Part shown: positions 4,502-45,348 of the stretch, one piece after another
How positions within the stretch are numbered: position 1 is the first letter of the stretch
Layout of the letters: every line of letters begins with the position of its first letter
Source of the DNA: Cyanidioschyzon merolae
Lineage: Eukaryota
Direction: 5' to 3' (one strand)
DNA: 64,000 nt
NCBI GenBank assembly: GCA_000091205.1
Contig: AP006495.2
The notes under the pieces: generated by a model
What the model was told of the DNA's origin: nothing
Database searches by the model: none
Seen by the model: only the letters and a program-made list of their open reading frames with translations
Position numbers and translations under genes: made by a program

Positions 4502-5683
4502 TCAGGAAGCGGTCTCGCTCATGCTTCCCTGGAGTGCGCCTTCTACGAGGTATTCCGCAATGGCCATCGACGATGTCGCTGCTGGCGATGGGGCGTTTCG
4601 CACGTGCACAACATTCCGATGGCGCTCGAAATGAAAATCATTTAGAAGCGTGCCATCACGGGTTAGCGCTTGTGCTCGAACACCGTAGAATGAGCGTTCA
4701 AGGTCGTGTGGACCAAGGTCTGGCACCATGCCACGCAGCGCTCGCCAGAGCGCGAGCGGCGCGTTTTCTTGCCACCATTGGCTCAGGCCGAATCGCCAGT
4801 GCTGCTGTACGAGCCGCCAAAAGCCCGGGTACTGAATTGGTGGCCATCCAGCCAGGGTTGCTGTTGGCCCAACCCATACGCGACGCCCATCAACGGAAGG
4901 CGTGAAGTGAACGCCCGCAAACGGGTAACGCTTGTCTGGGACCGGGTAGATGTTGCATCGGCTGAGCCCCAAGCGCTGGATTGCGTCGGGACGAAGCTCG
5001 AAATACTGGCCCTTTACCGGAAGAATGCGCAGCTGCGTCGTCGGCAGCGTGCTCCCGCCAACACATACAAAAACCCAGTCCCAATGCTGATACCAGGCTC
5101 GCGCGTCTACCGCCCATCGCGGGTGTGTCTCTGCGTCTGGTTCGAGTGCTCTCAGTGGAACCTCAGTGCCCAAGCGTAGGGTAAAGCGGTCACCTAGGCG
5201 TTCAGCGGCATCTGCGACAAGCGCTCGGGCGAGAGCCGGATAGTCAATCACTCCAGTATTCGGCGAATAGAGGCTTCGCACAGCACGAACACTTGGCAAG
5301 GGGACGCCATCGAGGAGCTCCAGCCCCTGAACGCCGTTCGCCACTGCGTTTGTAAAGATTTCGGCCAGTCGTCCAGCCTCAGCTTCGTTCCGCGCGACAA
5401 TGTACTTGCCCGCTCGTCGTACAGGAACTCGTTGCCCTGCGGGCGACTCGCAGAACTCGTAGATGTGACGTGCACCCAGGACGCAGAGACGACCTTTGAA
5501 CGAGCCGGGCGCGTAGCCGATTCCGGCGTGTATAACACCGGAGTTGTGACCGGACTGTTCTCCTGCTATGTGTTGCGACTTTTCAAAAACTTCCAATCGG
5601 GTGACCAAACCAGTGTACCGGGTAGCGAAGTAGTGTGCCGTTGCGACGCCGACGAGTCCGGCGCCTACAACGGCGACTCGCAT
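4502..5683 (-). CDS. L2HGDH: L-2-hydroxyglutarate dehydrogenase-like FAD-dependent oxidoreductase
   Basis: Rossmann start MRVAVVGAGLVGVATAHYF. Motifs GHNSGVIHAGIGYAPGS and C-terminal NAPSPAATSSMAIAEY match the L2HGDH/LhgO family. Confidence 0.75.
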   Translation of the reverse strand: MRVAVVGAGLVGVATAHYFATRYTGLVTRLEVFEKSQHIAGEQSGHNSGVIHAGIGYAPGSFKGRLCVLGARHIYEFCESPAGQRVPVRRAGKYIVARNEAEAGRLAEIFTNAVANGVQGLELLDGVPLPSVRAVRSLYSPNTGVIDYPALARALVADAAERLGDRFTLRLGTEVPLRALEPDAETHPRWAVDARAWYQHWDWVFVCVGGSTLPTTQLRILPVKGQYFELRPDAIQRLGLSRCNIYPVPDKRYPFAGVHFTPSVDGRRVWVGPTATLAGWPPIQYPGFWRLVQQHWRFGLSQWWQENAPLALWRALRGMVPDLGPHDLERSFYGVRAQALTRDGTLLNDFHFERHRNVVHVRNAPSPAATSSMAIAEYLVEGALQGSMSETAS

Positions 5684-5766
5684 CCACCGCGTCTAATGTT
5701 CTTCTCGAGGAAGCTTCGCGGAGGCCAACACGAAGCTTCAAATCGGGTGTCCGTCCACGCAGTCCA

Positions 5767-5782
5767 AAACAAAAGCGAGGTG
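5767..5782 (-). terminator. RNA polymerase III T-run terminator for tRNA-Ala
   Basis: Immediately 3' of the tRNA the minus strand reads CCTCGCTTTTGTTTT. A TATATAAA element lies ~45 bp 5' of the tRNA, at 5912-5920. Confidence 0.5.
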
Positions 5783-5870
5783 TGGACGTGAGGGGAATCG
5801 AACCCCTGGCCTTGACAATGCTAATGTCACGTCGGGTACTGCAGCAGTCATACCACTTGACGACACGCCC
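5783..5870 (-). tRNA. tRNA-Ala(AGC) with a ~16-nt non-canonical intron between D-arm and anticodon arm
   Basis: The reverse complement folds as acceptor GGGCGTG/CACGTCC with a G3:U70 wobble (the Ala identity element), D-arm GTCA-AGTGGTA-TGAC, anticodon arm TGACA-TTAGCAT-TGTCA (anticodon AGC), variable AGGCC, T-arm AGGGG-TTCGATT-CCCCT, discriminator A. The 17 nt TGCTGCAGTACCCGACG lie between the D-stem and anticodon stem, i.e. N26 plus a 16-nt intron. Confidence 0.7.
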
Positions 5871-5899
5871 GGCAGAGACACCCGCCTGCATTAGACTAG

Positions 5900-6850
5900 A
5901 TCGCAAAATTAGTATATAAATGGATCTTCATCGAAATGATCCTGGGTGCGAACGCCGTCCGGGGCTGCGTCTCAACCAGAGACGTGCTGGCGTCCTCGTT
6001 CCATGGAGCGCGAACTAGACCCGAGTCAGATTGAAATGGGGTACTGAACAGGAAGTTCTTTTCCCCGCTTCACCAAATTTTTCGAATTTTACAGATGCTA
6101 AGCTTCGACATTCGACGTCCAGCGATATGGGATTTCAGATTCATGCGTAAGTTTCGGACTCGTGGGCGCGTTTTCGGGGTGCCTTCTTCGACGATTTGAC
6201 GCTGGAATTCTTTATGTCACCGGAATCAGGACGATTCGCGACGCCCTCGAGGAAGCGTTCGTAAAATGAACTATACGACTGCTCAATTCGTGCCTAAAGC
6301 CTCCAAGCTTCCCATTTCTTTACGACTAGCATGCTCCAATTAAGCATTCTTCAGGTTTTCGATCTTTCTGTTCCGAGGCAACTCGTGTGGGCAGGCATTT
6401 CGCGCCGCTGGAGTCATGGCGTGGAAGCGTAGTCGATGTCGACCCTTGACGAGTTGTTCACATGCTTATGCCGAAAGTTTGTCGAAATCTTCACGTCAAA
6501 TAATAGGTTTTGACTGAATGACAAAATCCTCCTCGAATCGTGGCCATGGACGACTCGCGATTCGGCAGCAACCTGATGCATCTCAGGCGTATATGCACGA
6601 TGAGGCTCTAGTCTCGCACGTTTGCGTGCAAAAGGGTCTTGGACCTGGATATGATCCATTGCGGCGATCGATGTTGGTGGGATGCGCGTCACCGCTTCCC
6701 ACGAGGGAATCGTAAACGGATCGAAAATTCTCGACTTGTTCTCCAACCTGGTTTTTCCCGCACACGTTTCATCATGGATAAAATCGCGCTCCACAAATCC
6801 GATACTGAATGGAGCAGCGTGCGCTTGCGCGTGCTGCCTTCAGTGTACTC
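5900..6850 (+). repeat. dispersed composite repeat family, copy A (5'-truncated; abuts tRNA-Ala upstream side)
   Basis: 60-65% nucleotide identity to 20700-21560 and 37085-38520. Shared blocks include ggaatca..gattcgcgacgccctc, ccaagcttcccatttc, ctgtttcc and gtcaccgcttcccacgaggg...aaaattctcgacttgttctccaacc. Weakly conserved peptides appear on both strands. Confidence 0.7.
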
Positions 6851-27553: not shown

Positions 27554-30099
27554 TGAGCGTTGGATCGCTGCACGTGGCGCAGCAACACGTTCAGGCATTC
27601 TCGGAAGCGAGGTTTCAAAATTCTTTTCCTTCCAGCAGGCCGTGTTACATACACTGCGTCGAGCTTCAGTTTTGTTATCGCACGAATCTTTTATCGAAAG
27701 AGTCCGGAAGAATATGGACGGATGTGAGCCCCGTATCCGGAACACCCGTGAACTGTAGATTGACGTGCAGCTTCAAGTATCGGACAGCTAGAAGGGCGTT
27801 CGGCGAGCGAGAAGCCTTGCGAGCGCGCATGGCGCCGTTCATCTCATTTTTTGGAAGAGTCTGCAGGTTGATGTGTGTCACAAGGGAGGCCCTTACCATG
27901 GTATCAGCCTGATCTTTCCCCTCCGGCAGCTTTTCTTTCCCTGTAACCCATCGTCCTCTATTCAGGAGCATCTTTCTCTTCTTTGCAAGGTGCGCTCTTT
28001 CCTTCCTCATTTACTTGGCGCTGTGGCTTGGATACGTTTTCCAGACTCCATATCTGTTTTCTTCCGGGGAATTCAGACGCACAGGATGGAGAATACGACT
28101 GAAATTCGCCGATTCTGTTTATGCGTCAAAGATTTGTCAAATACATGTTCATCACCGTGTCCGTGGTGAGCGCACCAAGTAACTGGAGCGCACCTGTCTG
28201 CAACCGCCCGCGCACGAGCAAAGAAGCAAGAAACCTGTTCGGCACTGGAGAAGTGAAAGAAAGATGTGGCGAAAAACGATGCCACGGATGCAAACGACTC
28301 GTCCATTGATCGTTGAGCGTCGAACTAGGGTTTTACAACAGATAAGAGGCATTGGACTGGATTGAACCAGGTAGAACAGGCTGGCTCGAATAGCAGCTGA
28401 GCGCCAATCGCAGCTGGTTACTCGTTGCCCGCTTTTGACTGATGGAAACCCACGTCATCTAAGAGCGGAATAGCAGAGTGTGGAAAGCACGTACCACGAA
28501 GCATGCGTCGACGACGGATGAGGTATTCAAAGATGCCTCACAGTTGGCGATTTGGAAGCGGTCACATGATTGAATCCCCGTTGGCGTTCATGTTGTCATG
28601 ATGCTCGCTTTTCTCTCGTTTACGAACAGCGGTTTGCCGCTCTTTGAGCATTCACATGCAGTTCTACCATTTCTTCCGATTAGAGTCTGATCGTGTTAGA
28701 GGAACACCCGCCCATAGTTTAAAACGCTCTCGTGCTCATGGGAAATCGGTCTCATGTTGTTCAACGAGCGACGGTCTCCCACAGAGCCGAGGTTTTTTTC
28801 TACGTCTATTTCGAGTCTGCATGTAAGCGTTCATGTGAAAGGTACAGAAACTTTGTGTTTAATCGCTTTTTGGTGACATTTTTAGGGAATGTAAGAAGCG
28901 GAATGGACCGAGGAACAAACAGTGGCATAGATCGAGTTTGATTGCTTCAGTTTCCCGTGTACGACGTAAAGTGCAACGACTGTGGCATAGGCGGTTCATC
29001 CATCCGCCGACCATAGAATAACTGACTTTGACGAAAGAGACAGTATTTTCACAAGTTAGCCGCGACAGGGTAGAGTACATCAAATACCCACCTGGAGTCT
29101 ACAGGATATATCCATGTATTGAACAAGTGCGAGAAAAACGAACAAGACAAAAACGGCTTGCAGGTAGAGATGTTCTCAAATTCACTGTTTTAAATAGAAG
29201 AACTTGCGCTCCACCATATCAGAATAAAATGAAGCGGGTCTTCTGATACGGACGTATAGACTAGAGATTGGGTCGTTGCCCGATTTCATCGAAACCAGTC
29301 TTTGTGGACTTGTTTCGCAACTGTCTCATATTGCTCTCTTATTCCAAGCTTTGAATAGGGCTGGCTCCTTTGTTCCTCCAGCTCGATTCGTACTTAGAAT
29401 CAGGAGCTTCTTCTCGACCATCTTCTCAGCGAGTACGCTGTCAGCTGCATGCGCGAGCGCACATTGTACCATTTGATAGCGGACTTGTGCATCATGATGT
29501 TTTCCGTGATGAAACAAGTACGAGAATGAGTTTCCAGGTTGGATATTAATTGAAGATATTTCGATCCATTTACACTTGCTTCGGGCAAATCGTTGGTACA
29601 CGTTCCGCTGCAAGCGATTGCTGCGGTAACTCTAGACCGAGTGCAAGACCCTCGTCAATGCAAACAGGAGAGTCGGGAGCCTCTCCGAGCGGTATCCCGA
29701 AATGAGGTATCATGCTGGTACAAAATACCATTTCGTCAATGGTCAAATAGATATGAATCTTTGTCTTTCGAACGAAATCGGTGGTTTGCAGAGAGTCCTA
29801 CAGAGCACTTCCGGCATGATCTTGTGAGCAACTCGTCAAAGATTGACGTCGAGCGTTTACCTCTTCAGTCCTATGGCGCGAATCGCTGCGACTACGAGTT
29901 GTCTTGGAAATGGTGGACAGAAAATTTGGCGCATGCGCGATATGAGCATACAACAGGTATAAAACGGAGAAGAATCGCGGCTTTTTCATAAGAGTAAGAT
30001 ACCAATATCGATTGGGTTACGAACTTTTGCATACGTACGTCGCGAATCATCCTGACCCCAGTGACGGAACGAATGCCACGTGCAGTGTCGATAGAGCAG

Positions 30100-30325
30100 C
30101 CCCCCCCCCCAAAACGACAGGGAAACATCCGAAAACGACATATGAATCCGTACGCCCTCCTAGCCGAAAATGGGTTATCGAGGCTGTACATCCGAAAAAA
30201 AATGTCCGGAAAAAAAAAAAAAAACCTGGAACGGAGCGATCAGCCCAAAAATCCATAGGAATCTGAAACGACTGGACAATAGTTTCGCCAACTGCCTCGC
30301 CCCGAGTCCGCGACATACGCAGAAG

Positions 30326-30356
<31 letters not shown>

Positions 30357-30360
30357 ACAC
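30100..30360. repeat. low-complexity cluster: poly(C)11, poly(A)15, (CA)~17
   Basis: cccccccccc at 30100-30110, a15 at 30220-30234, and cacacacacacacacacacacagacacacac at 30326-30360, all upstream of the probable start codon at 30407. Confidence 0.9.
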
Positions 30361-30406
30361 TCTTGGGGGTTTTGGGAGCGTTGAGGCCCCCAACGTGCCC
30401 TCTTGG

Positions 30407-33400
30407 ATGACGACTATGGAAAATGGCACCGCGAGTGCCACGGACCTGCGCAGTGTCGTCGAACAAGCCGCACGCGAAGATGCCCCAGTCACTACAGTCG
30501 TTGTTGCACTGGAAACTTTAGCGTACTGGTGCCATGGCCGAGGAAAACCGCTGCAATCACGTGTCGTTGATGCAGCGGATCGGGAGCTTTTTCTCACCTC
30601 CGGTGCGCTCACAGAGCTCCTGGAACTGGTTCTCTCGCGTTGCCCTCTGGCTGCCTTCGGAACGCGTGAGCGAGCGGCACTCAGTGTTGCATCCATGTTC
30701 CGCTTTGGGCCCGCTGGACAGGTAGTGCTCGCTGTGGACAGAGCGTTGCGACGGGTGCAGCGACTTGCGAGCGACCCTGTGGTGCGCGAACAGCGAGCAA
30801 AGTGGATTGCTTTCGAGTTATTCGAAAAGCATTTCGTGCGTGTTCCAGGGTGTCTCCTTGGGGCACTAGCTGGCGTGCGCTATCGTGCCACGGAACCACG
30901 TTGCCTTACCGTGGACCGTGAGGCAGACCCCGATACCGTTCTTCGGTCTCTGCTAGCCATGCCGGACATCGTCACGAACGTCCTTCAATGCGCACTCCCT
31001 GAGACGTGTACGCTACATCCACAGCGCTATCCGCACTGTCTCGCTTGGACGGTTACCGAATGGTTATTGACACTTTGTTCATCGCAGTACGCTTCGATGG
31101 GAGTAGAGAAGCAGCAGCTAATTTGGTTGACAAATGAAGCACTGGCTTCAAATGTTGTCGCAGAGGTTAGCGGCTCGCTCTCAGCGCTGGACCTGCACGA
31201 AGACGACACGACGTATGGAAGCGCAGTGATGCTGTCGATGCCGTCGCCACAAGACGCCTACGCTTTCGGTTCCAGTGCATTGGAGACGCTTATGGACATG
31301 GCGGGAAGACTCGGGAGGCATCTCTGTCGTCGAAGATGCATCACAGCCTGGTGTCAGGTTGCGATCCGAGCGTTGATCGCACTAGAGCGCCAGCTCAGTG
31401 CCTCACAGGCCGACTACTGGAAACGTTGTTGCATGGAGAGCTTCACTGCGTTGCCAGATCGCTATATTGCACCACTCATGGAGCAATTTGCCATTCTGGG
31501 ATGCAAGGGTCCAGATCAACATCAAGTGGCGGCGATTGCATATCTGGAGTATTTGTGTAGAACTCGAGATACTGCGGTGGCCTTTGTATCGAAAACACTT
31601 CCGTCATCGATGCCCAAGGCTACATCCATGCTATCACCTCTGGCGGCGCCCGGGGACCAGAGAATTCTCCTTTTCCTGTTACGCAGTTGCAGAGATGTGG
31701 TCGAGACGTCACACTGGAGAACAGCATTGACGCTCGCGCTCAAGCGTTGGATGCAAACCGCGCGGACGGCCGCGTTGTGGGCGGAGGATCTCCATATAAC
31801 TCGAATGCTTCTGTTCCTGGCGCAAGCGAGTTGTTCTGGTGACCCGGAGCATTCATGCTCCCGAACTGAATCGTGCGAATCATATGGAGTGGATTGGTTT
31901 GTGCTCTTGGGCGAAGGAGTCAAAGAACATCTCGCGGGAGCGCTGCCAGAGACGCATTTCCATGGAATGATCGTTGGCGAGACAGTATCGAGAATATGGG
32001 ACCCGCCCGGCAAGAGCATGCAGTTTGACATTGCCGCCTACGAGGCTTGGAAAGCTAGCGACCCTGAGCTGCTGCAACCTTGGATCGAAGCGACCAAGGA
32101 GCCACTGCTCGCGCAGCACCAGCAGCACCAGCATCCAGTTGACGGGGGAGTTGCGACTGGGACGCCACCCTCCGAAGGCACCTCGTTGTGCGCACCTTCG
32201 ACACACGCTGTGGCCACAGTGGGAGTCAGGTCACCAGCTGTCGCCGACGAGAACGATAACGACGACCTGAAACCGTATCCAATGCCGGCTGATGAACTCG
32301 CGATTGATCCTCATTCGGAGCCGCGGGAAGACGGTACTGGATCATGCGCTCAGGAGACACTTGGGCTACCGCAAACATTCGAGACGCTTTATCGAGCGCT
32401 GGCCGCGGAGGTGCGGCACGAACCTTTCGGTGCCGAGGCAGCACTCCGGGGGCCTAGCTCCACAACACCCCAGGATTCAACGCCCACGTCGACGAGCATA
32501 CCCACGCAGCGTGTGCTGTGTCAACTCGAACAACTTATCGAACGCGACGTTGCAGGTCTTGAATATTGGGCGATGCCTATGCTTCAGCTGCTGCACCGAC
32601 TGGGCACCGGCTCCTCGTCCACATCGATCGCACGCGACTGCGCTGCACTTTGCAGAACAATCGCAGTCCATGCATTCTCTTCCATTGCAGTACCTGTAGC
32701 AAAACTCGTCTTCAGTCAGAATATGACGCTGACAGAGCGAAGCGAGTGGCTCGAGATCCTCGCGAACAGCGTCGAAACCCTTCTGAACACCCAATACACC
32801 GCACGAAAGCCAACACAGCGAGGCGCAGCGGAAGCAACCTCGCCGACACCCGAAGGCCATCAAGACCACCAGATATGCAGCCGCGTCAGGCGCGTTTCGG
32901 TGCGCTCGCTGCATCAAACAAAAGCACGGCAAAGCGAGTCTTTCGCGATGTCTCAGCGTGCGGTATTCACTGCAGCTGCAGGCGCTTGCGACGCGTCTGG
33001 GCAAACGTCACTTCACACCCAGCCGGCACTCCACTTCCATGCCATGGTGCAGGCGTTCTTTGAATTACTCGCTGGGGCGGACACCGAGGAGCCCTGGCTC
33101 GATCTCTGGCGACGGGATCAAATGCTTCTGGCGCAACTGGTACAGACATGTGCTCTGGTACTGCACTGTGCGCAAGGGCCGGGCTCTCTTTGTATAGGTG
33201 CGGTGACTCGTCTCGCCAGCATGGGACAAGCGCTAGCGCAACTGGCATACACAGCGCGAACTTGCTCGGATGCTGCAGTGCATCGGGCGTGTGTACTCGC
33301 ATTCAACGCTGTTTACGAGATTCTTTTGCGAATTCGTGAAGCGTACGGTATTCAAAGTTTCCGGCAATTGGAGCACTGGTGGAGATCGAACCAAAGCAGC

Positions 33401-39446: not shown

Positions 39447-40991
39447 ATGGATGCAACTGCTCATATAGGCAGTGCGTTTGATCTCCGGGGGAATATCGGC
39501 GAAGAAAGCCCTCTCTCAGTGGAGAACGAGGCACCACCAAACGCTTTTCAGGGCACGCGGGGCTCGGACACGGAAAATGATAGCCGACTCTCGCTCGGTG
39601 CGCTTTCGTCCTATGCGCCGTTGCTTGTGGAAGTTGCTTGCCAGCTAAGCAAGTTACGAGATCGACTAAACGACTTGGAGCATCAATCGAGAAAATCGAG
39701 CTGTGTCCAAGACCAGCTGGGTGCACTTGCCAATCAGGTAGCCGTATTAGAGGAGCGCTTGCGCCAGCACGTGCTGGCTCGCGAGCACTGGTGCGCTGCT
39801 GAATCCGTTCCCGAACGGAAATCCCTCCTCGAAAGCGAGGATGCATCGGACGCTGTGGACAAACTCGCCGAGGAGTTCAGAGACCAATTTTTAGACATCA
39901 GAGCGTTCGAGCTCCGCCTCACTCAAGCGGTCAACGCGCGCTTTCTGGAACTCTATCGCTGGACGGAGTCCCAATTGACCCGTCTCGAGGAAAGACTTGC
40001 CAGCATCGACGTGGACGGCTCTCTGAAGCGCGAGATGGCCACGCATGCAGAGCAAATAGGTCAAAAACTGGAACACCTTGAATCGGGCATGCGTTCGTGC
40101 ATTTCACGCGAGGAGTGGTCACGTGAGCGTGACGCCCTTGAAAAGCACCTTCGCCATGATCTCGGCGAGTGCGCGAATCGCAACGCGTCGTCGAAACCGT
40201 CGGCACCCACAGAGCAGGGCACAACCTCAACCTCAGTTGCGCTGGATGCGATGCGTAGTGTCATGCACCTCCAGAGCACCGTCGAGGGGAATGCTCGCGC
40301 TGTCGAGGACGCCCTCACAGCAGTACGCACGAGCTGCCAAGCGCTCAACCAACGTCTGCAAAGAATAGAACACCAGTTAACAACGGATGAATTCGTCGGC
40401 GGCGCTGGCATGCGACAGGTCGCGCCACCACCAGACTGGAACCAGATCCAGCAAACCGTCCGAAAACTCGAAAGCCAGCTGCAGAAACTATCTTCCCGGT
40501 TACCGGATCCCGAAGAAATACACACCGCCGTAACACAGACCAAGGAACTAACTGGCCGGAACGATCAACTCGAACGAAGAGTAGAGCGCTTGCACGTCCA
40601 AATGGAAAGCGAGCGGAACCAGCGCAGCGAGCTGGAGCACAAGGTAACCCGCCTGGAGGACTTTACCAGCACTTTACAATCACTACCCGCCGAGTTGACG
40701 AGTCTCACCAAGTCCATGACCCAAGGCGATGAAGTTCTACAAGAGTGGGTGCGCGGCCAGCTCCAACGACTCGATGCGCGACTCCATGAACACGAATCTT
40801 CACTACACGAGCTTCGTGCGGAGACGGCGCACCTCTACGAACAGTATGCGGAAGTAGCAGCTCTGATCCTGTTGATGACTCCAGCCGACAACCGGGCCAC
40901 AGTGGAGCGACGAATTCGACAACTATTGCCGGGCCTTGGAGCGCTGAAATTGCCCGCATCACGCGCTGGCACCTCCGAGGACACCCGCTGA
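39447..40991 (+). CDS. coiled-coil protein of unknown function
   Basis: 514-aa ORF dominated by heptad-like segments rich in Leu, Glu, Arg and Gln. No enzymatic motifs. Confidence 0.5.
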   Translation: MDATAHIGSAFDLRGNIGEESPLSVENEAPPNAFQGTRGSDTENDSRLSLGALSSYAPLLVEVACQLSKLRDRLNDLEHQSRKSSCVQDQLGALANQVAVLEERLRQHVLAREHWCAAESVPERKSLLESEDASDAVDKLAEEFRDQFLDIRAFELRLTQAVNARFLELYRWTESQLTRLEERLASIDVDGSLKREMATHAEQIGQKLEHLESGMRSCISREEWSRERDALEKHLRHDLGECANRNASSKPSAPTEQGTTSTSVALDAMRSVMHLQSTVEGNARAVEDALTAVRTSCQALNQRLQRIEHQLTTDEFVGGAGMRQVAPPPDWNQIQQTVRKLESQLQKLSSRLPDPEEIHTAVTQTKELTGRNDQLERRVERLHVQMESERNQRSELEHKVTRLEDFTSTLQSLPAELTSLTKSMTQGDEVLQEWVRGQLQRLDARLHEHESSLHELRAETAHLYEQYAEVAALILLMTPADNRATVERRIRQLLPGLGALKLPASRAGTSEDTR

Positions 40992-41356
40992 ATGCACGCG
41001 AACAAACCTGCGCGCAACGATAAACCTAGCGCCTGCAGCTCAAACGAAACGTCCCGCCATCGACAGCAATTGCAGCACGCAGCGCAGGTTTACGGACGCG
41101 AGCATGCACGGCACTAGAAGCGATTCGGCATCCGTGCCGCCCCGTGCCTACCCTACATGCGCGTCGGCGACAGGGTGAACGCGCGAGCACGTGCCGTACC
41201 CCAGCCGTTAGCAACGAATCAGCGCCGGCGCCGCGCTCATTCGCGCGCATCGTCGGGCGCAGCACCTGCATGCGTGCGCGCACGTGCATCGCATGGAGCT
41301 GCGGCCACGTACAACGTGCCACGTGTCCATGCATCGTGCACGTAGCCGGGCGCTAC

Positions 41357-41420
41357 GTGCTGCTGCTGCTGCGGCGGCGGCAGCGGCGGCAGCGGCGGCA
41401 GCGGCAGCGGCAGCGGCAGC
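41357..41420. repeat. (GCN)~20 trinucleotide repeat (GCT/GCG/GCA)
   Basis: gctgctgctgctgcggcggcggcagcggcggcagcggcggcagcggcagcggcagcggcagcg. It sits between the 3' ends of convergent genes and yields poly-Ala artefact ORFs. Confidence 0.9.
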
Positions 41421-41670
41421 GGGCACCCCGGGATCATCAGGTGCCGGCGGCAGCGTACCGCAGACCCGTGGGCATCGACGGCACATCCGACGCGCCACGC
41501 CTCTAGGTGGCATCGAGCGTTCGCGACTGCCGCCGCCGCCACGCAGTGTCCTGGTGCCGGTGTGCACGCACCGACGGCGGCTGCCAGGAGCGTCTGCCGC
41601 GTCGTCTGCGACGTGCCGGTTGCGGTTGCCGGCTCGTTGACGGTAGGCGCGCCGCTGGCGCCAGCCCGAG

Positions 41671-44600
41671 TCAGGGCGCGGCACGCTGTAGCGCATCCGC
41701 GCGCAGCACCAGGCCGTACACGTACGGGCCGCGCACTCCGCCGTGTGCGTGTCGATCCCACTCGCCGGTGACCTCCAGGTTCAGTATTTTGCTGAAAAAT
41801 TGTTTGATTCGGTAAATTCTGAGCGGCTCCCGATGAGCGGCACCTTGACCAGCCCGTGGTGGTGCACTGTATCGATTGAAGTGGTCTTTGAGATTCCGTA
41901 AACGTACGAAATCCGTGCTCTTGGGGTTTCGGCGCACATTCTCTGTGATATCGTAGTGCTGGAGAAGGAAACCCGCGAATCGGGCGTACGCGTTATCGCT
42001 CCGGTGGATGCGCTCCAGCAGTTCGAGTCGTTCGCTCCGGGTCTGGGGCGGCTCGACGTCTCCCAGACCCTCAAGGGTGATCGGTGCTGTGCGGTCGCTC
42101 GAGGCCGACGAAGAGCGCACGTCGAGACTTTCGCCACTGGCGCCTTGCTCGAGCCAGCGGCTTCCAGCGGGGGCACGCGTTGCGTCATGGTGCAAGGCGC
42201 TGGATCCGGGAGCAGGAGCCTCATTCGGGGCGGATCCATCGCGCGTTCGCTGCTGGGCCGGTGCTTGCGGTGCGGCTGCAGCACCGGACGCTCTTCGCTT
42301 GGTTTTCGCTGCAGATGATACGCTGCCCGCTGTATCATGTTCTAAGCGCTGCGTAACTCGCGCGGCAGCCACCGCGGGGAACCTCTCTGGCATCGTCAAG
42401 TCAGGGTTGGTGCAAACGCCTTCGTCAGCTAGTGCACGTTTCCGTCCAGCTCTGTCCTCTAGATACCGCGCAGCTTCGCCATTATCGTACCGAGTCGAGG
42501 TCGATGCCGGCATCGCGCCGGGTCGCCGGTGCACGCTCGCATCCTCAGCTGCCGACAACGACGGACGCTCATTGATAAGCGCCCACGAGGCAGGTGCGGA
42601 AACGCTGGTTTCGGGTCCCAGCGAATGACCCGGTGCTGGGCGAGGCATGGCGCCCGGTTCTCCGGACTCGAACGCAAAAACAGACCCGGGCAGGTTGGCG
42701 TTCAGCATCGATCGAGTACCCATCGGCTGCGACTGTGACCCCGGTAACGTGGCGGTGCCTCGTGAACTGCCTCGACCGTGGCCCGCCCCACCAGTATGGT
42801 GCAGCAACAGCGGCGATGCGCTCGTGGTACCTGGATCAACCGCCGCGTTGGGCGTGCGCATCATCTGGCCGGGTGACAGGGCTGCCGCCGCTCCACCAGC
42901 CGTCACAAGCGATCGGCTTCCCGACGTCGACACATGCACCGCGGACGACGGATGACTGGCGTTTGGCGCTACAATGCCGCTCAGGCTACTGAGATGCTCC
43001 GTCGGAGGCGCGCGCATAAAGTCAGGATTTGTTCCCGGGACTCGTCCAGTGGGCTCCATGATCGAGCCGCGTGCAAGTGGCGTGGTTGCACCAGCAGACA
43101 AGAGTGCATGAAACGAATCGACGCGGTGCAGTTTCTCGGTGTAGGAATCTTCATCCACGCTACTTGGAGCTCCCACGACGACCTCGGGTATGCTGCGGTC
43201 GGAGCCGCCGCCGCCGCCGCCGCCGCCACCACCAACGCCGCTGCTGCCCATGCCCATGCCGCTCGAAACAAGCGCCATTTGTTGGTTCCCAAATGTGCCC
43301 GCACTCACACCGTACATCAAAGAGGAGCCTCCGTTTCCGCCACCTGGTCCCTGAGCGTAACCGTTACTGCCGCCAAGACCCGGGGAAGGCCCCGCCAGCT
43401 GCGCGCCATTCGCCCCGCTCGCACTGCCGCCCAGATCAAAAACGTTGTGCAGCGGATCGTCTTGGCTCATGGACCAGACCCGTGGGAGCAGTCCAACATG
43501 ATCGCCTCCGATCGAATCACCAGCTATTTCCTGATCATCGATGCTGGCGTCGCTATCTCGCATGGGACGCTCAGGCTGCCTTCCGCTAGGTAGTTCGTGA
43601 CCAAGATCGCTCAGCCCGAAGAGGTCTTCCTGTTTAGAATCCAACACGTTGTAGACCTCATCAATGGGCCAATCGCTCATGAGTTCCTGAGTCCCCTTCA
43701 GCGATAGCGTATTCGGGACCCGCACACCGTAGCCGCGCTTGTTCAGCACAACTTGGCGAAGGTATCGAAGCGCGTCCCGGGCTCGGCGACGTGCTACCCG
43801 ATTCTCGACAACCGGTCGCGGATAGGTGACACCCAGTTCAACCCTAGCCTGATGCAGAATCGTCGGAGGGCATTTCCACACCGCATGGATGTAGCTACTG
43901 GGGATCTGTTGCAACTCTGGACACCAGGTACGCACGTACTCACCCTCGGGGTCTACGCGCATGCCCATCACGACTGGGTTCACGAGGCAATTCAAGGGGA
44001 AAACGTCGTAGTTGCAGCCCGTCACCCACTGCCAGCAGATCGCGTTGCTCGCCAGATCGCCATCGATGAATAGTTTGAAGAGGCAACGAGCCCCGATCTG
44101 CCACGGCAGGAGAAGGTACTTGGTAAAAAAAGAAGCTACAAGAAACCGCAGATTCGAATGCAACCAGCCGGTGTGGTGCAGTTCCCGCATTGCCGCATCA
44201 ACGAGTGGGTAGCCCGTGCGTCCCGAGAGCCACACCTCGAGGAGACGGCCCACATCTTCCTTGGTGCATGGAAAATGATCAAATTCTGGCACCAGTGGTC
44301 TATCCAGGATCGATGGTCGGTAAAATAGCATATGATAAGCGTACTCGCGGAGGCAGAGGTTTCTCAGGAGCGTTCGAGCAGCCCGAATTATTGCATCTGA
44401 TGGCTCAGACTGCAGTACAGACGCCCGAACAGCGTGGTAGAGGCGCCGCGGTGACAATTCTCCGAACCGTAGGTACGGCGAAAGCCGTGATGTCCCGTTT
44501 CGGAGACGCTGTCGTCTTCGAGCGTCCCCATACGTCGGAAAGACACTCGTCAAGAAGTCTTGCAGGCGCTCTGCTACACAATCCACGCCGGGGCGCCAGT

Positions 44601-45348
44601 ACTCCTCAAGGCTGCCTAAGTTGTGTATCTGGTTCCACCAAATTCCCATTTCAGTGTCGGTATCCTCGCCGCCGGGCGACTGCAGCACATCCGACGGTTG
44701 CATCGTGGACTCGGGCACAGCGAACAGAGGCCCCTGATCTCCCGACTGGGAGGCAATGAGCGGCTCTATTCGCTTAGGTGCAGGCAACGGCTCTGGGGGT
44801 GGTGGCATAGCCATCCACGCTGACATGAACTCGTGGAAGGTGTCGAGCGGACGGTCCCCAAAGCTCGCGGGCCTGCTCTCTGTTGCACAAACCTCCCACG
44901 GCTCGACCAGGAGCTCCGCCTTGAAGGACTCAACAGCCAGGCGGTGGTGCTTCGACCATCGCCGCCGCACTTCCTCATCTCTGCGTAACACAACAGGGTC
45001 GTAGACCCGATTCCAGTACACAGCCTCGGCACCGCAGCGTTTCACGACCTCCAGAAGCGTCGTCTCGACGCCGCCGCCGCCGCCGCTTTCCGACTTCGCA
45101 CGCCTCAGAATTAACCCGGTTTCGCAACCTAGCTCCCGAAGTCGTCGGTCAAGTGCAACAATGGAACGACTCAACCACCAACGTGCCGGTCGGCCGAGAC
45201 ACCACATACCGTCCTCTTCGGGTGCCCAGATGAACACCGGCACCACCGGGCCTCCGCGCTGCACGGCAGCAAGCAACGCTGGCATGTCCTCAACACGGAG
45301 GTCGTGGCCGCGGTACCACACAACCGAAGGTCGTCTCGACGACGACAT
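41671..45348 (-). CDS. cryptochrome/photolyase family protein, plant-CRY / class III CPD-photolyase-like, with ~650-aa low-complexity C-terminal extension
   Basis: N-terminal VVWYRGHDLRVEDMPALLAA...PVFIWAPEEDG...GRPARWWL is like plant CRY1 (IVWFRRDLRVEDNPALAAA...VWAPEEEG...GRVSRWWL). FAD-binding region GRTGYPLVDAAMRELHHTGWLHSNLRFLVASFFTKYLLLPW...DPEGEYVRTWCPEL...IHAVW. The C-terminal half is rich in Gly, Ser, Ala and Pro. Confidence 0.85.
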   Translation of the reverse strand: MSSSRRPSVVWYRGHDLRVEDMPALLAAVQRGGPVVPVFIWAPEEDGMWCLGRPARWWLSRSIVALDRRLRELGCETGLILRRAKSESGGGGGVETTLLEVVKRCGAEAVYWNRVYDPVVLRRDEEVRRRWSKHHRLAVESFKAELLVEPWEVCATESRPASFGDRPLDTFHEFMSAWMAMPPPPEPLPAPKRIEPLIASQSGDQGPLFAVPESTMQPSDVLQSPGGEDTDTEMGIWWNQIHNLGSLEEYWRPGVDCVAERLQDFLTSVFPTYGDARRRQRLRNGTSRLSPYLRFGELSPRRLYHAVRASVLQSEPSDAIIRAARTLLRNLCLREYAYHMLFYRPSILDRPLVPEFDHFPCTKEDVGRLLEVWLSGRTGYPLVDAAMRELHHTGWLHSNLRFLVASFFTKYLLLPWQIGARCLFKLFIDGDLASNAICWQWVTGCNYDVFPLNCLVNPVVMGMRVDPEGEYVRTWCPELQQIPSSYIHAVWKCPPTILHQARVELGVTYPRPVVENRVARRRARDALRYLRQVVLNKRGYGVRVPNTLSLKGTQELMSDWPIDEVYNVLDSKQEDLFGLSDLGHELPSGRQPERPMRDSDASIDDQEIAGDSIGGDHVGLLPRVWSMSQDDPLHNVFDLGGSASGANGAQLAGPSPGLGGSNGYAQGPGGGNGGSSLMYGVSAGTFGNQQMALVSSGMGMGSSGVGGGGGGGGGGSDRSIPEVVVGAPSSVDEDSYTEKLHRVDSFHALLSAGATTPLARGSIMEPTGRVPGTNPDFMRAPPTEHLSSLSGIVAPNASHPSSAVHVSTSGSRSLVTAGGAAAALSPGQMMRTPNAAVDPGTTSASPLLLHHTGGAGHGRGSSRGTATLPGSQSQPMGTRSMLNANLPGSVFAFESGEPGAMPRPAPGHSLGPETSVSAPASWALINERPSLSAAEDASVHRRPGAMPASTSTRYDNGEAARYLEDRAGRKRALADEGVCTNPDLTMPERFPAVAAARVTQRLEHDTAGSVSSAAKTKRRASGAAAAPQAPAQQRTRDGSAPNEAPAPGSSALHHDATRAPAGSRWLEQGASGESLDVRSSSASSDRTAPITLEGLGDVEPPQTRSERLELLERIHRSDNAYARFAGFLLQHYDITENVRRNPKSTDFVRLRNLKDHFNRYSAPPRAGQGAAHREPLRIYRIKQFFSKILNLEVTGEWDRHAHGGVRGPYVYGLVLRADALQRAAP

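What the first reader, a model, noticed from the sequence alone, without database searches (positions are those of the whole stretch)
5783..5870. tRNA-Ala(AGC) interrupted by an intron at a non-canonical position (D-arm/anticodon-arm junction)
The gene folds into a textbook tRNA-Ala, with the G3:U70 identity pair, the anticodon loop TTAGCAT (identical to animal and plant tRNA-Ala-AGC), the T-loop TTCGATT and a downstream T-run. This works only if ~16 nt (GCTGCAGTACCCGAC[G]) between position 25/26 and the anticodon stem are removed. Canonical eukaryotic tRNA introns lie at 37/38. Introns at ectopic positions, presumably processed through bulge-helix-bulge motifs, are a hallmark of a few algal nuclear genomes and of archaea. 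This is both a lineage clue and an unusual RNA-processing substrate.
Basis: partly seen in the sequence, partly recalled or inferred. Interest (0 to 1): 0.6.

Follow-up and report, generated by a model that had tools for sequence, protein, structure and literature searches.

The report
Red-alga alanine tRNA with D-stem intron

Summary
Window 5783-5870 (minus strand) is a tRNA gene (Rfam RF00005, 48.3 bits). It gives a perfect tRNA-Ala(AGC) cloverleaf with G3:U70 only after 16 nt are removed. The window is Cyanidioschyzon merolae 10D nuclear chromosome 13, shown by exact protein matches. Soma et al. 2013 (PMC3728597) reported 42 introns in 27 of this organism's 43 nuclear tRNA genes, five of them in the D-stem. 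They are processed through bulge-helix-bulge (BHB) motifs. The only register with a BHB-like motif puts the intron at window 5848-5833, between tRNA positions 23 and 24 in the D-stem. It is not at the D-arm/anticodon-arm junction. That register has a 4-bp helix GGUA/UACC, 3-nt bulges UGA and CGA, and a 3-bp inner helix. Syntenic orthologues in Cyanidiococcus yangmingshanensis, an unnamed relative and Cyanidium caldarium carry introns of 18, 16 and 58 nt at the same site. They keep the same central helix, and all three inner-helix pairs covary. Splicing of this particular gene was not observed here. Verdict: already known, low interest. Conservation of the intron site across Cyanidiales is a small addition.

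The parts
5783..5870 (-). Whole tRNA-Ala(AGC) gene, 88 nt, from G1 (5870) to discriminator A73 (5783). No CCA is encoded; the next bases are CAC.
   Evidence: Rfam RF00005 at 48.3 bits. ARAGORN calls the spliced product tRNA-Ala(agc).
5849..5870 (-). 5' exon, 22 nt (tRNA positions 1-23, no position 17): acceptor 5' strand, D-stem 5' strand GUCA, D-loop AGUGGUA, and U22 G23.
   Evidence: It is identical in Cyanidiococcus and in L142.
5833..5848 (-). Intron, 16 nt, ACUGCUGCAGUACCCG, between tRNA positions 23 and 24. A direct repeat GAC (5849-5847 and 5833-5831) means that four excision registers give the same mature sequence. The BHB geometry selects this one.
   Evidence: Register scan: only a=22, b=38 gives H = 4 bp and h' = 3 bp. 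Orthologues carry 18-, 16- and 58-nt introns at the same site.
5783..5832 (-). 3' exon, 50 nt (tRNA positions 24-73): A24 C25 G26, anticodon arm, variable loop AGGCC, T-arm, acceptor 3' strand, discriminator A.
5851..5854 (-). Central BHB helix H, exon strand GGUA (D-loop G18 G19 U20 A21).
   Evidence: Pairs with UACC at 5838-5835. Pair probability is about 0.86 in the ensemble. Invariant in 4 lineages.
5835..5838 (-). Central BHB helix H, intron strand UACC.
   Evidence: This is the only part of the intron that is invariant across the four lineages.
5848..5850 (-). 5' splice-site bulge U G|A. Predicted cleavage is between 5849 and 5848.
   Evidence: It is a 3-nt bulge between H and h'. The rule that the cut falls 2 nt after the H strand follows from the BHB description in PMC4090602.
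5839..5847 (-). Inner helix h' with its loop: CUG-CUG-CAG (3 bp closing a 3-nt loop).
   Evidence: All three pairs covary among orthologues: CUG/CAG, CGC/GCG, CGC/GCG, UCG/CGA, and 12 of 12 cells are Watson-Crick. Probability is low (0.06) in the single-sequence ensemble.
5832..5834 (-). 3' splice-site trinucleotide C G|A. Predicted cleavage is between 5833 and 5832. It is not closed by an adjacent outer helix, which makes the motif relaxed.
   Evidence: The outer helix h has 0 bp in C. merolae and 1 bp in Cyanidium.
5820..5822 (-). Anticodon AGC, within the loop UUAGCAU.
5913..5920 (-). Upstream TATA-like element TTTATATA, at -50 to -43 from the mature 5' end. It is the probable Pol III promoter.
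   Evidence: Invariant in 12 C. merolae-type variants while the spacer downstream of it is polymorphic. Conserved as TTTATATA..AATTT in Cyanidiococcus and L142 within otherwise unalignable DNA. Soma 2013 reports TATA-like elements upstream of most C. merolae tRNA genes.
5766..5774 (-). T-run TTTTGTTTT, starting 9 nt after the discriminator. It is the probable Pol III terminator.
   Evidence: A T-run is present in all orthologues.

Best explanation
This is the nuclear tRNA-Ala(AGC) gene of Cyanidioschyzon merolae 10D. It carries one 16-nt protein-spliced (endonuclease-type) intron in the 3' strand of the D-stem, between tRNA positions 23 and 24.

Proposed mechanism, with shown and inferred steps marked:

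1. Transcription (inferred). The gene is transcribed from an upstream TATA-like element and terminates at the T-run.
2. Pre-tRNA fold (shown by sequence and covariation). The D-loop bases G18 G19 U20 A21 pair with intron UACC to form the 4-bp central helix. This helix is flanked by a 3-nt bulge UG|A, which is closed by a 3-bp intron hairpin. On the other strand lies the trinucleotide CG|A. Together these form a relaxed bulge-helix-bulge motif of the HBh' type.
3. Cleavage (inferred from Soma et al. 2013 for other genes of the same genome). [quoted passage not shown]
4. Ligation (inferred). A tRNA ligase joins G23 to A24. This restores the D-stem GUCA/UGAC and frees G18 and G19 for the tertiary fold.
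5. Later maturation (inferred from general eukaryotic tRNA biology). CCA is added, and A34 is presumably deaminated to inosine.
For: - **Organism.** Seven ORFs of the window are exact matches to C. merolae 10D proteins CMM060C-CMM07xC on an 866,983-bp contig.
- **tRNA identity.** Rfam tRNA scores 48.3 bits with a 17-nt D-region insertion. The 16-nt excision gives an ARAGORN tRNA-Ala(agc) with G3:U70 and all stems perfect.
- **Register.** Of the registers that restore the cloverleaf, only a=22, b=38 has H = 4 bp and h' = 3 bp. Shuffled introns reach this in about 0.2% of trials. H has pair probability about 0.86.
- **Comparative evidence.** Syntenic orthologues upstream of the same L-2-hydroxyglutarate oxidase-type gene carry introns of 18, 16 and 58 nt at the same site. 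They are Cyanidiococcus yangmingshanensis L141:9819-9908, an unnamed relative L142:9821-9908, and Cyanidium caldarium L144:9736-9865. H (GGUA/UACC) is invariant and the bulges are UGA, UGU or UGA and CGA, CGA or UGA. All three h' pairs covary, while loop length and sequence drift.
- **Pair counts.** 100% of cells are paired and 1 of 500 shuffles reaches the observed covariation score. The slid controls give 27-53% paired.
- **Exon conservation.** The exons are 100% identical between Cyanidioschyzon and Cyanidiococcus although the neighbouring protein is only 75% identical. Cyanidium shows a compensatory A-U to G-C change in the T-stem.
- **Literature.** 42 introns in 27 of 43 C. merolae nuclear tRNA genes, 5 of them in the D-stem. 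Motif types are hBHBh', hBH, HBh' and no-H. RT-PCR proved splicing for Asn, Phe, Ile and Gly genes. The same paper reports upstream TATA-like elements and T-stretches (PMC3728597).
- **BHB geometry.** Taken from PMC4090602.
Against: - No RNA data for this gene were available, so excision and the exact cut sites are inferred.
- The motif is not a strict hBHBh'. No outer helix closes the 3' bulge.
- Single-sequence thermodynamics prefer a different local fold. In that fold 9-12 pair with 38-41, U21 pairs with G32, and h' has probability only 0.06.
- Because of the GAC direct repeat, cleavage one nucleotide earlier (22/23) would give the same mature tRNA.
- I could not read the figures of Soma 2013, so I could not confirm that Ala(AGC) is listed there at this position.
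- The covariation rests on only four lineages and few independent events.
Confidence: 0.9

Rival explanations
1. The intron lies where the first reader put it, at the D-arm/anticodon-arm junction. Removing window 5845-5830 (GCUGCAGUACCCGACG) would leave U at position 26.
For: The product is still called tRNA-Ala(agc) by ARAGORN and has a complete cloverleaf (row 25/41).
Against: This register has no BHB: only 2 of 4 H pairs and 0 bp of h'. In Cyanidiococcus the bases after GGUA are UGUC, so the upstream copy cannot supply A24 and C25 of the D-stem there, yet the exons are otherwise identical. With the 23/24 register the two closest relatives (Cyanidiococcus and L142) give a mature tRNA identical to C. 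merolae.
Confidence: 0.04
2. Same intron and same mature tRNA, but cleavage is one nucleotide upstream on both sides (tRNA 22/23; intron 5849-5834, GACUGCUGCAGUACCC).
For: The product is identical because of the GAC repeat. This register also remains possible in Cyanidiococcus, where G is present on both sides. The cuts would be symmetric, each 1 nt after an H strand.
Against: The canonical BHB places each cut after the second bulge nucleotide. At the 37/38 site the first two anticodon bases lie in H (PMC4090602). When this register is scored by that rule it gives only 2 of 4 H pairs.
Confidence: 0.08
3. It is a class II-like tRNA with a long variable arm, as ARAGORN calls it: tRNA-Tyr(GTA), with the inserted segment as the anticodon arm and the UUAGCAU hairpin as the variable arm.
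For: ARAGORN output for the unspliced gene in the window and in C. merolae-type contigs.
Against: - The proposed anticodon stem has two G-U pairs and a C-A mismatch, and position 33 is A rather than U.
- The acceptor carries the alanine determinant G3:U70.
- In orthologues with identical exons, ARAGORN's call changes to Gly(ACC) (L142, L143) or disappears (Cyanidiococcus, Cyanidium). The segment also varies from 16 to 58 nt.
- The so-called variable arm is a perfect 5-bp, 7-nt anticodon arm.
Confidence: 0.01
4. The 16 nt are not removed. The locus would then be a decaying pseudogene, or a tRNA with an enlarged D-arm.
For: No expression data for this gene were examined here.
Against: - The exons are 100% conserved across genera whose neighbouring protein is 75% identical and whose intergenic DNA is unalignable.
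- A compensatory change occurs in the T-stem of Cyanidium.
- There were no polymorphisms in the 88 nt among 12 natural variants, while the upstream spacer varies.
- The insert length varies from 16 to 58 nt but keeps the splice-motif helices.
- C. merolae has only 43 tRNA genes and needs this anticodon (PMC3728597).
Confidence: 0.02

Closest known systems
Ectopic (non-37/38) BHB-flanked introns of C. merolae nuclear tRNA genes (Soma et al. 2013, Sci Rep 3:2321, PMC3728597)
   Same: - Same genome.
- A short intron (the published range is 11-69 bp) in the D-stem, where five are reported.
- A relaxed BHB motif of the HBh' type, which is among the published types.
- An upstream TATA-like element and a downstream T-stretch.
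   Different: Nothing substantive differs. I could not read the paper's figures to confirm that Ala(AGC) is listed at 23/24. Splicing was shown experimentally there for the Asn, Phe, Ile and Gly genes, not for this one.
Archaeal non-canonical tRNA introns (Crenarchaeota, Nanoarchaeota) with hBHBh' or relaxed motifs
   Same: - The intron lies outside 37/38.
- The geometry is the same: a 4-bp helix with 3-nt bulges, and cuts 2 nt after each helix strand.
- Recognition presumably depends on the motif rather than on the mature tRNA body.
   Different: - This is a eukaryotic nuclear gene with eukaryote-type Sen2, Sen34 and Sen54 subunits.
- CCA is not encoded.
- No sequence similarity to archaeal disrupted tRNAs has been reported (PMC3728597 Discussion).
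Canonical eukaryotic tRNA introns at 37/38 (yeast and human TSEN substrates)
   Same: Protein-catalysed endonuclease and ligase splicing. The central helix is formed between exon loop bases and the intron.
   Different: The position is the D-stem rather than the anticodon loop. The Sen54 ruler mechanism, which measures from the mature domain, cannot apply because the D-arm itself is remodelled in the precursor.
Non-canonical tRNA introns of the Guillardia theta nucleomorph (Kawach et al. 2005) and of Chondrus crispus (cited in PMC13578239)
   Same: Red-algal lineage, with introns in the D and T arms.
   Different: [quoted passage not shown] This one can.

Membership tests
tRNA-Ala | G3:U70 wobble pair in the acceptor stem (the major AlaRS determinant) and discriminator A73. 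| tested here: met
   G3 (5868) pairs with U70 (5786), and A73 is at 5783. The pair is conserved in all four lineages.
tRNA-Ala | An alanine anticodon in a 7-nt loop with U33 and a purine at 37. | tested here: met
   The loop is UUAGCAU with anticodon AGC.
BHB-spliced ectopic tRNA intron of C. merolae (Soma 2013) | [quoted passage not shown] | tested here: met
   Exact matches of 7 ORFs to C. merolae 10D proteins on an 866,983-bp contig.
BHB-spliced ectopic tRNA intron of C. merolae (Soma 2013) | The cloverleaf is restored only by removing an insert at a position other than 37/38. | tested here: met
   The 16-nt excision gives a perfect 72-nt tRNA-Ala(agc). The unspliced gene needs a 17-nt insertion in the Rfam alignment.
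BHB-spliced ectopic tRNA intron of C. merolae (Soma 2013) | A central 4-bp helix H with a splice site 2 nt 3' of each strand, and at least one 3-nt bulge closed by a flanking helix (hBH or HBh'). | tested here: met
   H is GGUA/UACC, the 5' bulge is UGA, and h' is 3 bp. The register is unique. The motif is conserved with covariation in four lineages.
Strict archaeal-type hBHBh' motif | An outer helix h of at least 2 bp directly closing the 3' bulge. | tested here: not met
   h has 0 bp in C. merolae, Cyanidiococcus and L142, and 1 bp in Cyanidium. The motif is therefore the relaxed HBh' type.
BHB-spliced ectopic tRNA intron of C. merolae (Soma 2013) | Excision in vivo by the Sen2/Sen34 endonuclease, followed by exon ligation. 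| not testable with these tools
   No RNA data or enzyme assay was available. RT-PCR evidence exists for other genes of the genome (PMC3728597).
BHB-spliced ectopic tRNA intron of C. merolae (Soma 2013) | An upstream TATA-like element and a downstream T-stretch, rather than reliance on A and B boxes. | tested here: met
   TTTATATA at 5920-5913 is conserved in relatives. TTTTGTTTT lies at 5774-5766. Function was not tested.
Canonical eukaryotic tRNA intron | The intron lies between positions 37 and 38. | tested here: not met
   The anticodon loop UUAGCAU is uninterrupted. The insert lies between the D-loop and the anticodon stem.
Class II tRNA-Tyr(GUA) (ARAGORN's call) | A stable 5-bp anticodon stem, U33, and an identity that is consistent among orthologues. 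| tested here: not met
   The stem has 2 G-U pairs and a C-A mismatch, and position 33 is A. The call changes to Gly(ACC) or to nothing in orthologues with identical exons.

The most novel reading that the evidence does not exclude
The D-stem 23/24 intron of this alanine tRNA gene is ancient. It would predate the split of Cyanidioschyzon, Cyanidiococcus and Cyanidium. For that whole time it has stayed at exactly the same site, with its splice motif preserved by compensatory changes, while its length drifted from 16 to 58 nt and the anticodon changed (AGC to GGC, with C33, in Cyanidium).

This would mean that ectopic tRNA introns in Cyanidiales are stably inherited and selectively constrained, not recent C. 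merolae-specific insertions. I found no paper in the held library that reports this comparison. The search was limited, and the observation covers a single locus.
Probability: 0.75. Interest if true: 0.35.

Novelty: already known. Interest (0 to 1): 0.18.

Why it matters
For the scan, this feature correctly flags the window as C. merolae-type nuclear DNA. It also shows that standard tRNA finders mislabel such genes: ARAGORN gave Tyr, Gly or nothing, and Rfam missed the 58-nt-intron orthologue.

Biologically it is one more instance of a published phenomenon. A eukaryotic tRNA-splicing endonuclease must recognise a BHB-like motif on its own, because the D-arm that the yeast enzyme uses as a ruler is itself disrupted.

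The modest new point is evolutionary. The same intron site and motif are kept in three genera of Cyanidiales. This gives a small natural mutagenesis series (h' sequence, loop length of 3-45 nt, bulge variants) for anyone testing substrate rules of the algal endonuclease.

Tried and rejected
- **ARAGORN on the raw gene.** It gives tRNA-Tyr(GTA). I rejected this call because the anticodon stem is weak, position 33 is A, the acceptor has G3:U70, and the call is unstable among orthologues.
- **Rfam's own alignment.** It puts the insertion inside the D-loop and uses CGAC as the D-stem 3' strand, which creates an A13-C22 mismatch. This register has no BHB (0 of 4 H pairs), so I treat it as an alignment convenience.
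- **Single-sequence MFE folds.** They prefer an extended hairpin (9-12/38-41, U21-G32) over the h' hairpin. On the four-lineage alignment that structure loses pairs (9-41 and 24-29 break), while HBh' is 100% paired.
- **Automatic MAFFT/RNAalifold alignment of the four pre-tRNAs.** It misplaces the gaps of the 58-nt and 18-nt introns. I therefore counted pairs on a gapless alignment in which the two longer loops were trimmed to 3 nt, and I say so wherever I cite it.
- **Close C. merolae-type metagenome contigs (98.5-100% identical).** They carry no variation in the gene, so they give no covariation power.
- **Rfam in E-value mode over the window.** The only extra result was a sub-threshold tmRNA hit on the same locus (31.2 bits, gathering score 47). 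This is a clan artefact of the tRNA-Ala-like shape. No permuted or further tRNA signal appeared.
- **Literature.** I could not find text naming Ala(AGC) in the held papers. Figures and supplements of Soma 2013 are not held.

Full report
**1. What is in the sequence**

On the minus strand, window 5870-5783 reads GGGCGUG UC GUCA AGUGGUA UGAC UGCUGCAGUACCCGACG UGACA UUAGCAU UGUCA AGGCC AGGGG UUCGAUU CCCCU CACGUCC A. Rfam's tRNA model matches it end to end at 48.3 bits, against a gathering score of 29 (E = 2.9e-07). It is the only Rfam family hit in the 64 kb, and the alignment needs a 17-nt insertion in the D region.

ARAGORN also finds exactly one gene here, but labels it tRNA-Tyr(GTA). It does so by using the inserted segment as an anticodon arm and the real anticodon hairpin as a long variable arm. 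That arm has two G-U pairs and a C-A mismatch, and position 33 is A.

- G3:U70
- anticodon loop UUAGCAU
- T-loop UUCGAUU
- a downstream T-run, TTTTGTTTT, at 5774-5766

**2. Where the window comes from**

Seven ATG-initiated ORFs of the window are exact full-length matches to Cyanidioschyzon merolae strain 10D proteins. They include CMM060C, CMM069C, CMM071C and a probable cryptochrome, all on a contig of 866,983 bp. The GC content of 51-62% and the long uninterrupted ORFs fit this genome. The window is therefore nuclear chromosome 13 of the red alga in which non-canonical nuclear tRNA introns were first described.

**3. What is already published**

Soma et al. 2013 (PMC3728597) report the following for the 43 nuclear tRNA genes of C. 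merolae:

- 42 introns in 27 genes.
- 17 introns at 37/38, 5 in the D-stem, 14 in the D-loop, and others in the variable and T arms.
- Intron lengths of 11-69 bp.
- Motifs classed as hBHBh', hBH, HBh' or 'no H'.
- Splicing shown by RT-PCR for the Asn, Phe, Ile and Gly genes.
- An upstream TATA-like element and a T-stretch near most genes.
- Sen2, Sen34 and Sen54 homologues, but no Sen15.

The held text does not name Ala(AGC), and the figures and supplements are not held. I therefore cannot cite the exact published entry for this gene. Later reviews repeat the picture (PMC3978253, PMC4090602, PMC13578239).

**4. Exact intron position**

I number the gene from G1 = 5870. The triplet GAC occurs at 22-24 and again at 38-40. 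Excising 22-37, 23-38, 24-39 or 25-40 therefore gives the same 72-nt product, which ARAGORN calls tRNA-Ala(agc) with every stem perfect.

In a BHB motif the cuts lie after the second nucleotide of each 3-nt bulge, that is, 2 nt 3' of each strand of the 4-bp helix. This follows from the description of the canonical site, where the first two anticodon bases lie in the helix (PMC4090602).

Scoring every candidate register by that rule gives one answer. Only a=22, b=38 has all four H pairs (G17 G18 U19 A20 with U33 A34 C35 C36) together with a 3-bp inner helix h' (C24 U25 G26 with C30 A31 G32, loop CUG). All other registers score at most 2 of 4 H pairs and at most 1 bp of h'.

In tRNA numbering the D-loop has no position 17, so this intron lies between G23 and A24, inside the D-stem 3' strand. 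In window coordinates it is 5848-5833. No outer helix closes the 3' trinucleotide C37 G38|A39, so the motif is the relaxed HBh' type, one of the published classes.

Shuffled introns of the same composition reach H = 4 bp plus h' of at least 3 bp in about 0.2% of trials.

**5. Thermodynamics**

In the partition function the H helix has probability about 0.86. The h' hairpin has only 0.06, because U21-G32 and a helix between 9-12 and 38-41 compete with it. The HBh' structure evaluates at -25.4 kcal/mol, against -31.3 kcal/mol for the MFE. Energy alone therefore supports the central helix but not the full motif.

**6. Related sequences**

*Close variants.* Twelve metagenome contigs of C. merolae-type strains are 98.5-100% identical over 261 nt. 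They show no change in the 88-nt gene or in the TATA-like element. About eight sites vary in the 20-nt spacer between them. This fits constraint on the gene but gives no covariation.

*More distant orthologues.* I searched with the neighbouring gene (window 4502-5683, a DAO-family protein annotated as L-2-hydroxyglutarate oxidase or dehydrogenase). This found orthologues at three distances:

| Source | Protein identity to C. merolae |
|---|---|
| Cyanidiococcus yangmingshanensis | 75% |
| Unnamed hot-spring lineage (77% identical to Cyanidiococcus) | 73% |
| Cyanidium caldarium | 56% |

Gene order (LrgB, aminotransferase, LSM, DAO, LRR) is conserved.

Each of these loci carries a tRNA about 92-135 nt upstream of the DAO gene, on the same strand:

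- L141:9819-9908 (Cyanidiococcus) and L142:9821-9908 / L143:5080-5167 (unnamed lineage), found by Rfam at 48-51 bits.
- L144:9736-9865 (Cyanidium), found by hand. Both Rfam at gathering threshold and ARAGORN miss it.

The exons of the first two are identical to C. merolae. Cyanidium differs at nine exon positions, including a compensatory A-U to G-C change in the T-stem.

All have an intron at the same site, with these parts:

| Lineage | Intron length (nt) | H | 5' bulge | h' | Loop (nt) | 3' bulge |
|---|---|---|---|---|---|---|
| C. merolae | 16 | GGUA/UACC | UGA | CUG/CAG | 3 | CGA |
| Cyanidiococcus | 18 | GGUA/UACC | UGU | CGC/GCG | 5 | CGA |
| L142 | 16 | GGUA/UACC | UGA | CGC/GCG | 3 | UGA |
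| Cyanidium | 58 | GGUA/UACC | UGA | UCG/CGA | 45 | CGA |

In Cyanidium, too, only the a=22 register gives H = 4 bp.

I counted pairs on a gapless alignment in which the two longer loops were trimmed to 3 nt. The HBh' structure is paired in 100% of cells. All three h' pairs change on both sides, and 1 of 500 shuffles reaches the observed covariation score. The slid controls fall to 27-53% paired. The single-sequence MFE structure does worse: pairs 9-41 and 24-29 break.

Cyanidiococcus has UGUC, not UGAC, after GGUA. ARAGORN's identity call changes from Tyr to Gly(ACC) to nothing across these orthologues, so reading the insert as an anticodon arm is an artefact.

**7. Comparison set**

I ran one metagenome scan with the pattern AGTGGTA-N(10-40)-TTAGCAT-N(12-14)-GGTTCGATTCC. 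The first spacing was 10 nt in 117 matches, 11 nt in 3, and 26 nt only in two C. merolae-type contigs. The mature product is the same length (72 nt) as the ordinary eukaryotic Ala(AGC) genes the scan returned.

**8. Mechanism**

Shown here:

- the gene and its identity elements;
- the unique BHB-compatible register;
- conservation and covariation of the motif;
- a conserved TATA-like element at -50 to -43 (5920-5913) and the T-run.

Inferred from Soma 2013 and general tRNA biology:

- Pol III transcription from the upstream element;
- cleavage by the Sen2/Sen34 endonuclease at G23|A and G|A24;
- ligation, CCA addition and A34-to-I editing.

Pairing of G18 and G19 with the intron means the D-arm and the elbow cannot form before splicing. 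This agrees with the published argument that motif-only recognition, not the Sen54 ruler, must act on D-arm introns.

**9. Verdict**

The phenomenon is already known for this genome, so interest is low.

The one small addition is that the intron site and motif are conserved in Cyanidiococcus and Cyanidium. This points to an old, stably inherited intron. I found no paper in the held library that makes this comparison.

Noticed in passing
L144:9736-9865 (+), Cyanidium caldarium GCA_026184775.1: The syntenic orthologue has a 58-nt intron at the same D-stem site. After splicing it reads as tRNA-Ala(GGC), with C instead of the near-universal U at position 33 (loop UCGGCAU). A G34 alanine tRNA is unusual for a eukaryotic nucleus. 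Both Rfam (gathering threshold) and ARAGORN miss the gene entirely.
   Followed up: partly
L005:1-690 and L017:1-88 (JGI metagenome contigs): In two contigs that carry the C. merolae DAO gene, AT-rich unrelated DNA replaces the 5' part of the tRNA. The breaks fall inside the anticodon loop (L005) and at the T-loop GGTTCGATTCC (L017). These are most likely assembly chimeras joined through conserved tRNA sequence, not real rearrangements.
   Followed up: partly
window 5871-5912 (-), spacer between the TATA-like element and the tRNA: Among 12 near-identical natural C. merolae-type variants, almost all polymorphism in a 261-nt stretch falls within about 20 nt of this spacer. The TATA-like element and the 88-nt gene are invariant.
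   Followed up: partly
window 5683-5783 (-), and L141, L142, L144: The tRNA gene ends only 92-135 nt upstream of the start codon of the DAO-family (L-2-hydroxyglutarate oxidase/dehydrogenase) gene, on the same strand. This tight linkage is kept in all four Cyanidiales lineages. The Pol III terminator therefore sits in the promoter or 5' region of a Pol II gene.
   Followed up: no
window 5780-5870 (-): In E-value mode Rfam reports the locus as tmRNA (31.2 bits, gathering score 47, full model span). This is a clan artefact of the tRNA-Ala-like shape plus the insertion, not a tmRNA.
   Followed up: yes
L142:9821-9909, L143:5080-5168, L141: ARAGORN labels the orthologue in the unnamed relative as tRNA-Gly(ACC) and finds nothing in Cyanidiococcus, although the exons are identical to C. 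merolae. Automated tRNA annotation of Cyanidiales genomes with bacterial-type finders will therefore be wrong for such genes.
   Followed up: yes
window 28001-32000 and 40001-44000: GC content dips to 0.51 at 28-32 kb and rises to 0.62 at 40-44 kb, against a background of about 0.56. The high-GC stretch overlaps the cryptochrome/photolyase-like ORF at 41671-45348.
   Followed up: no
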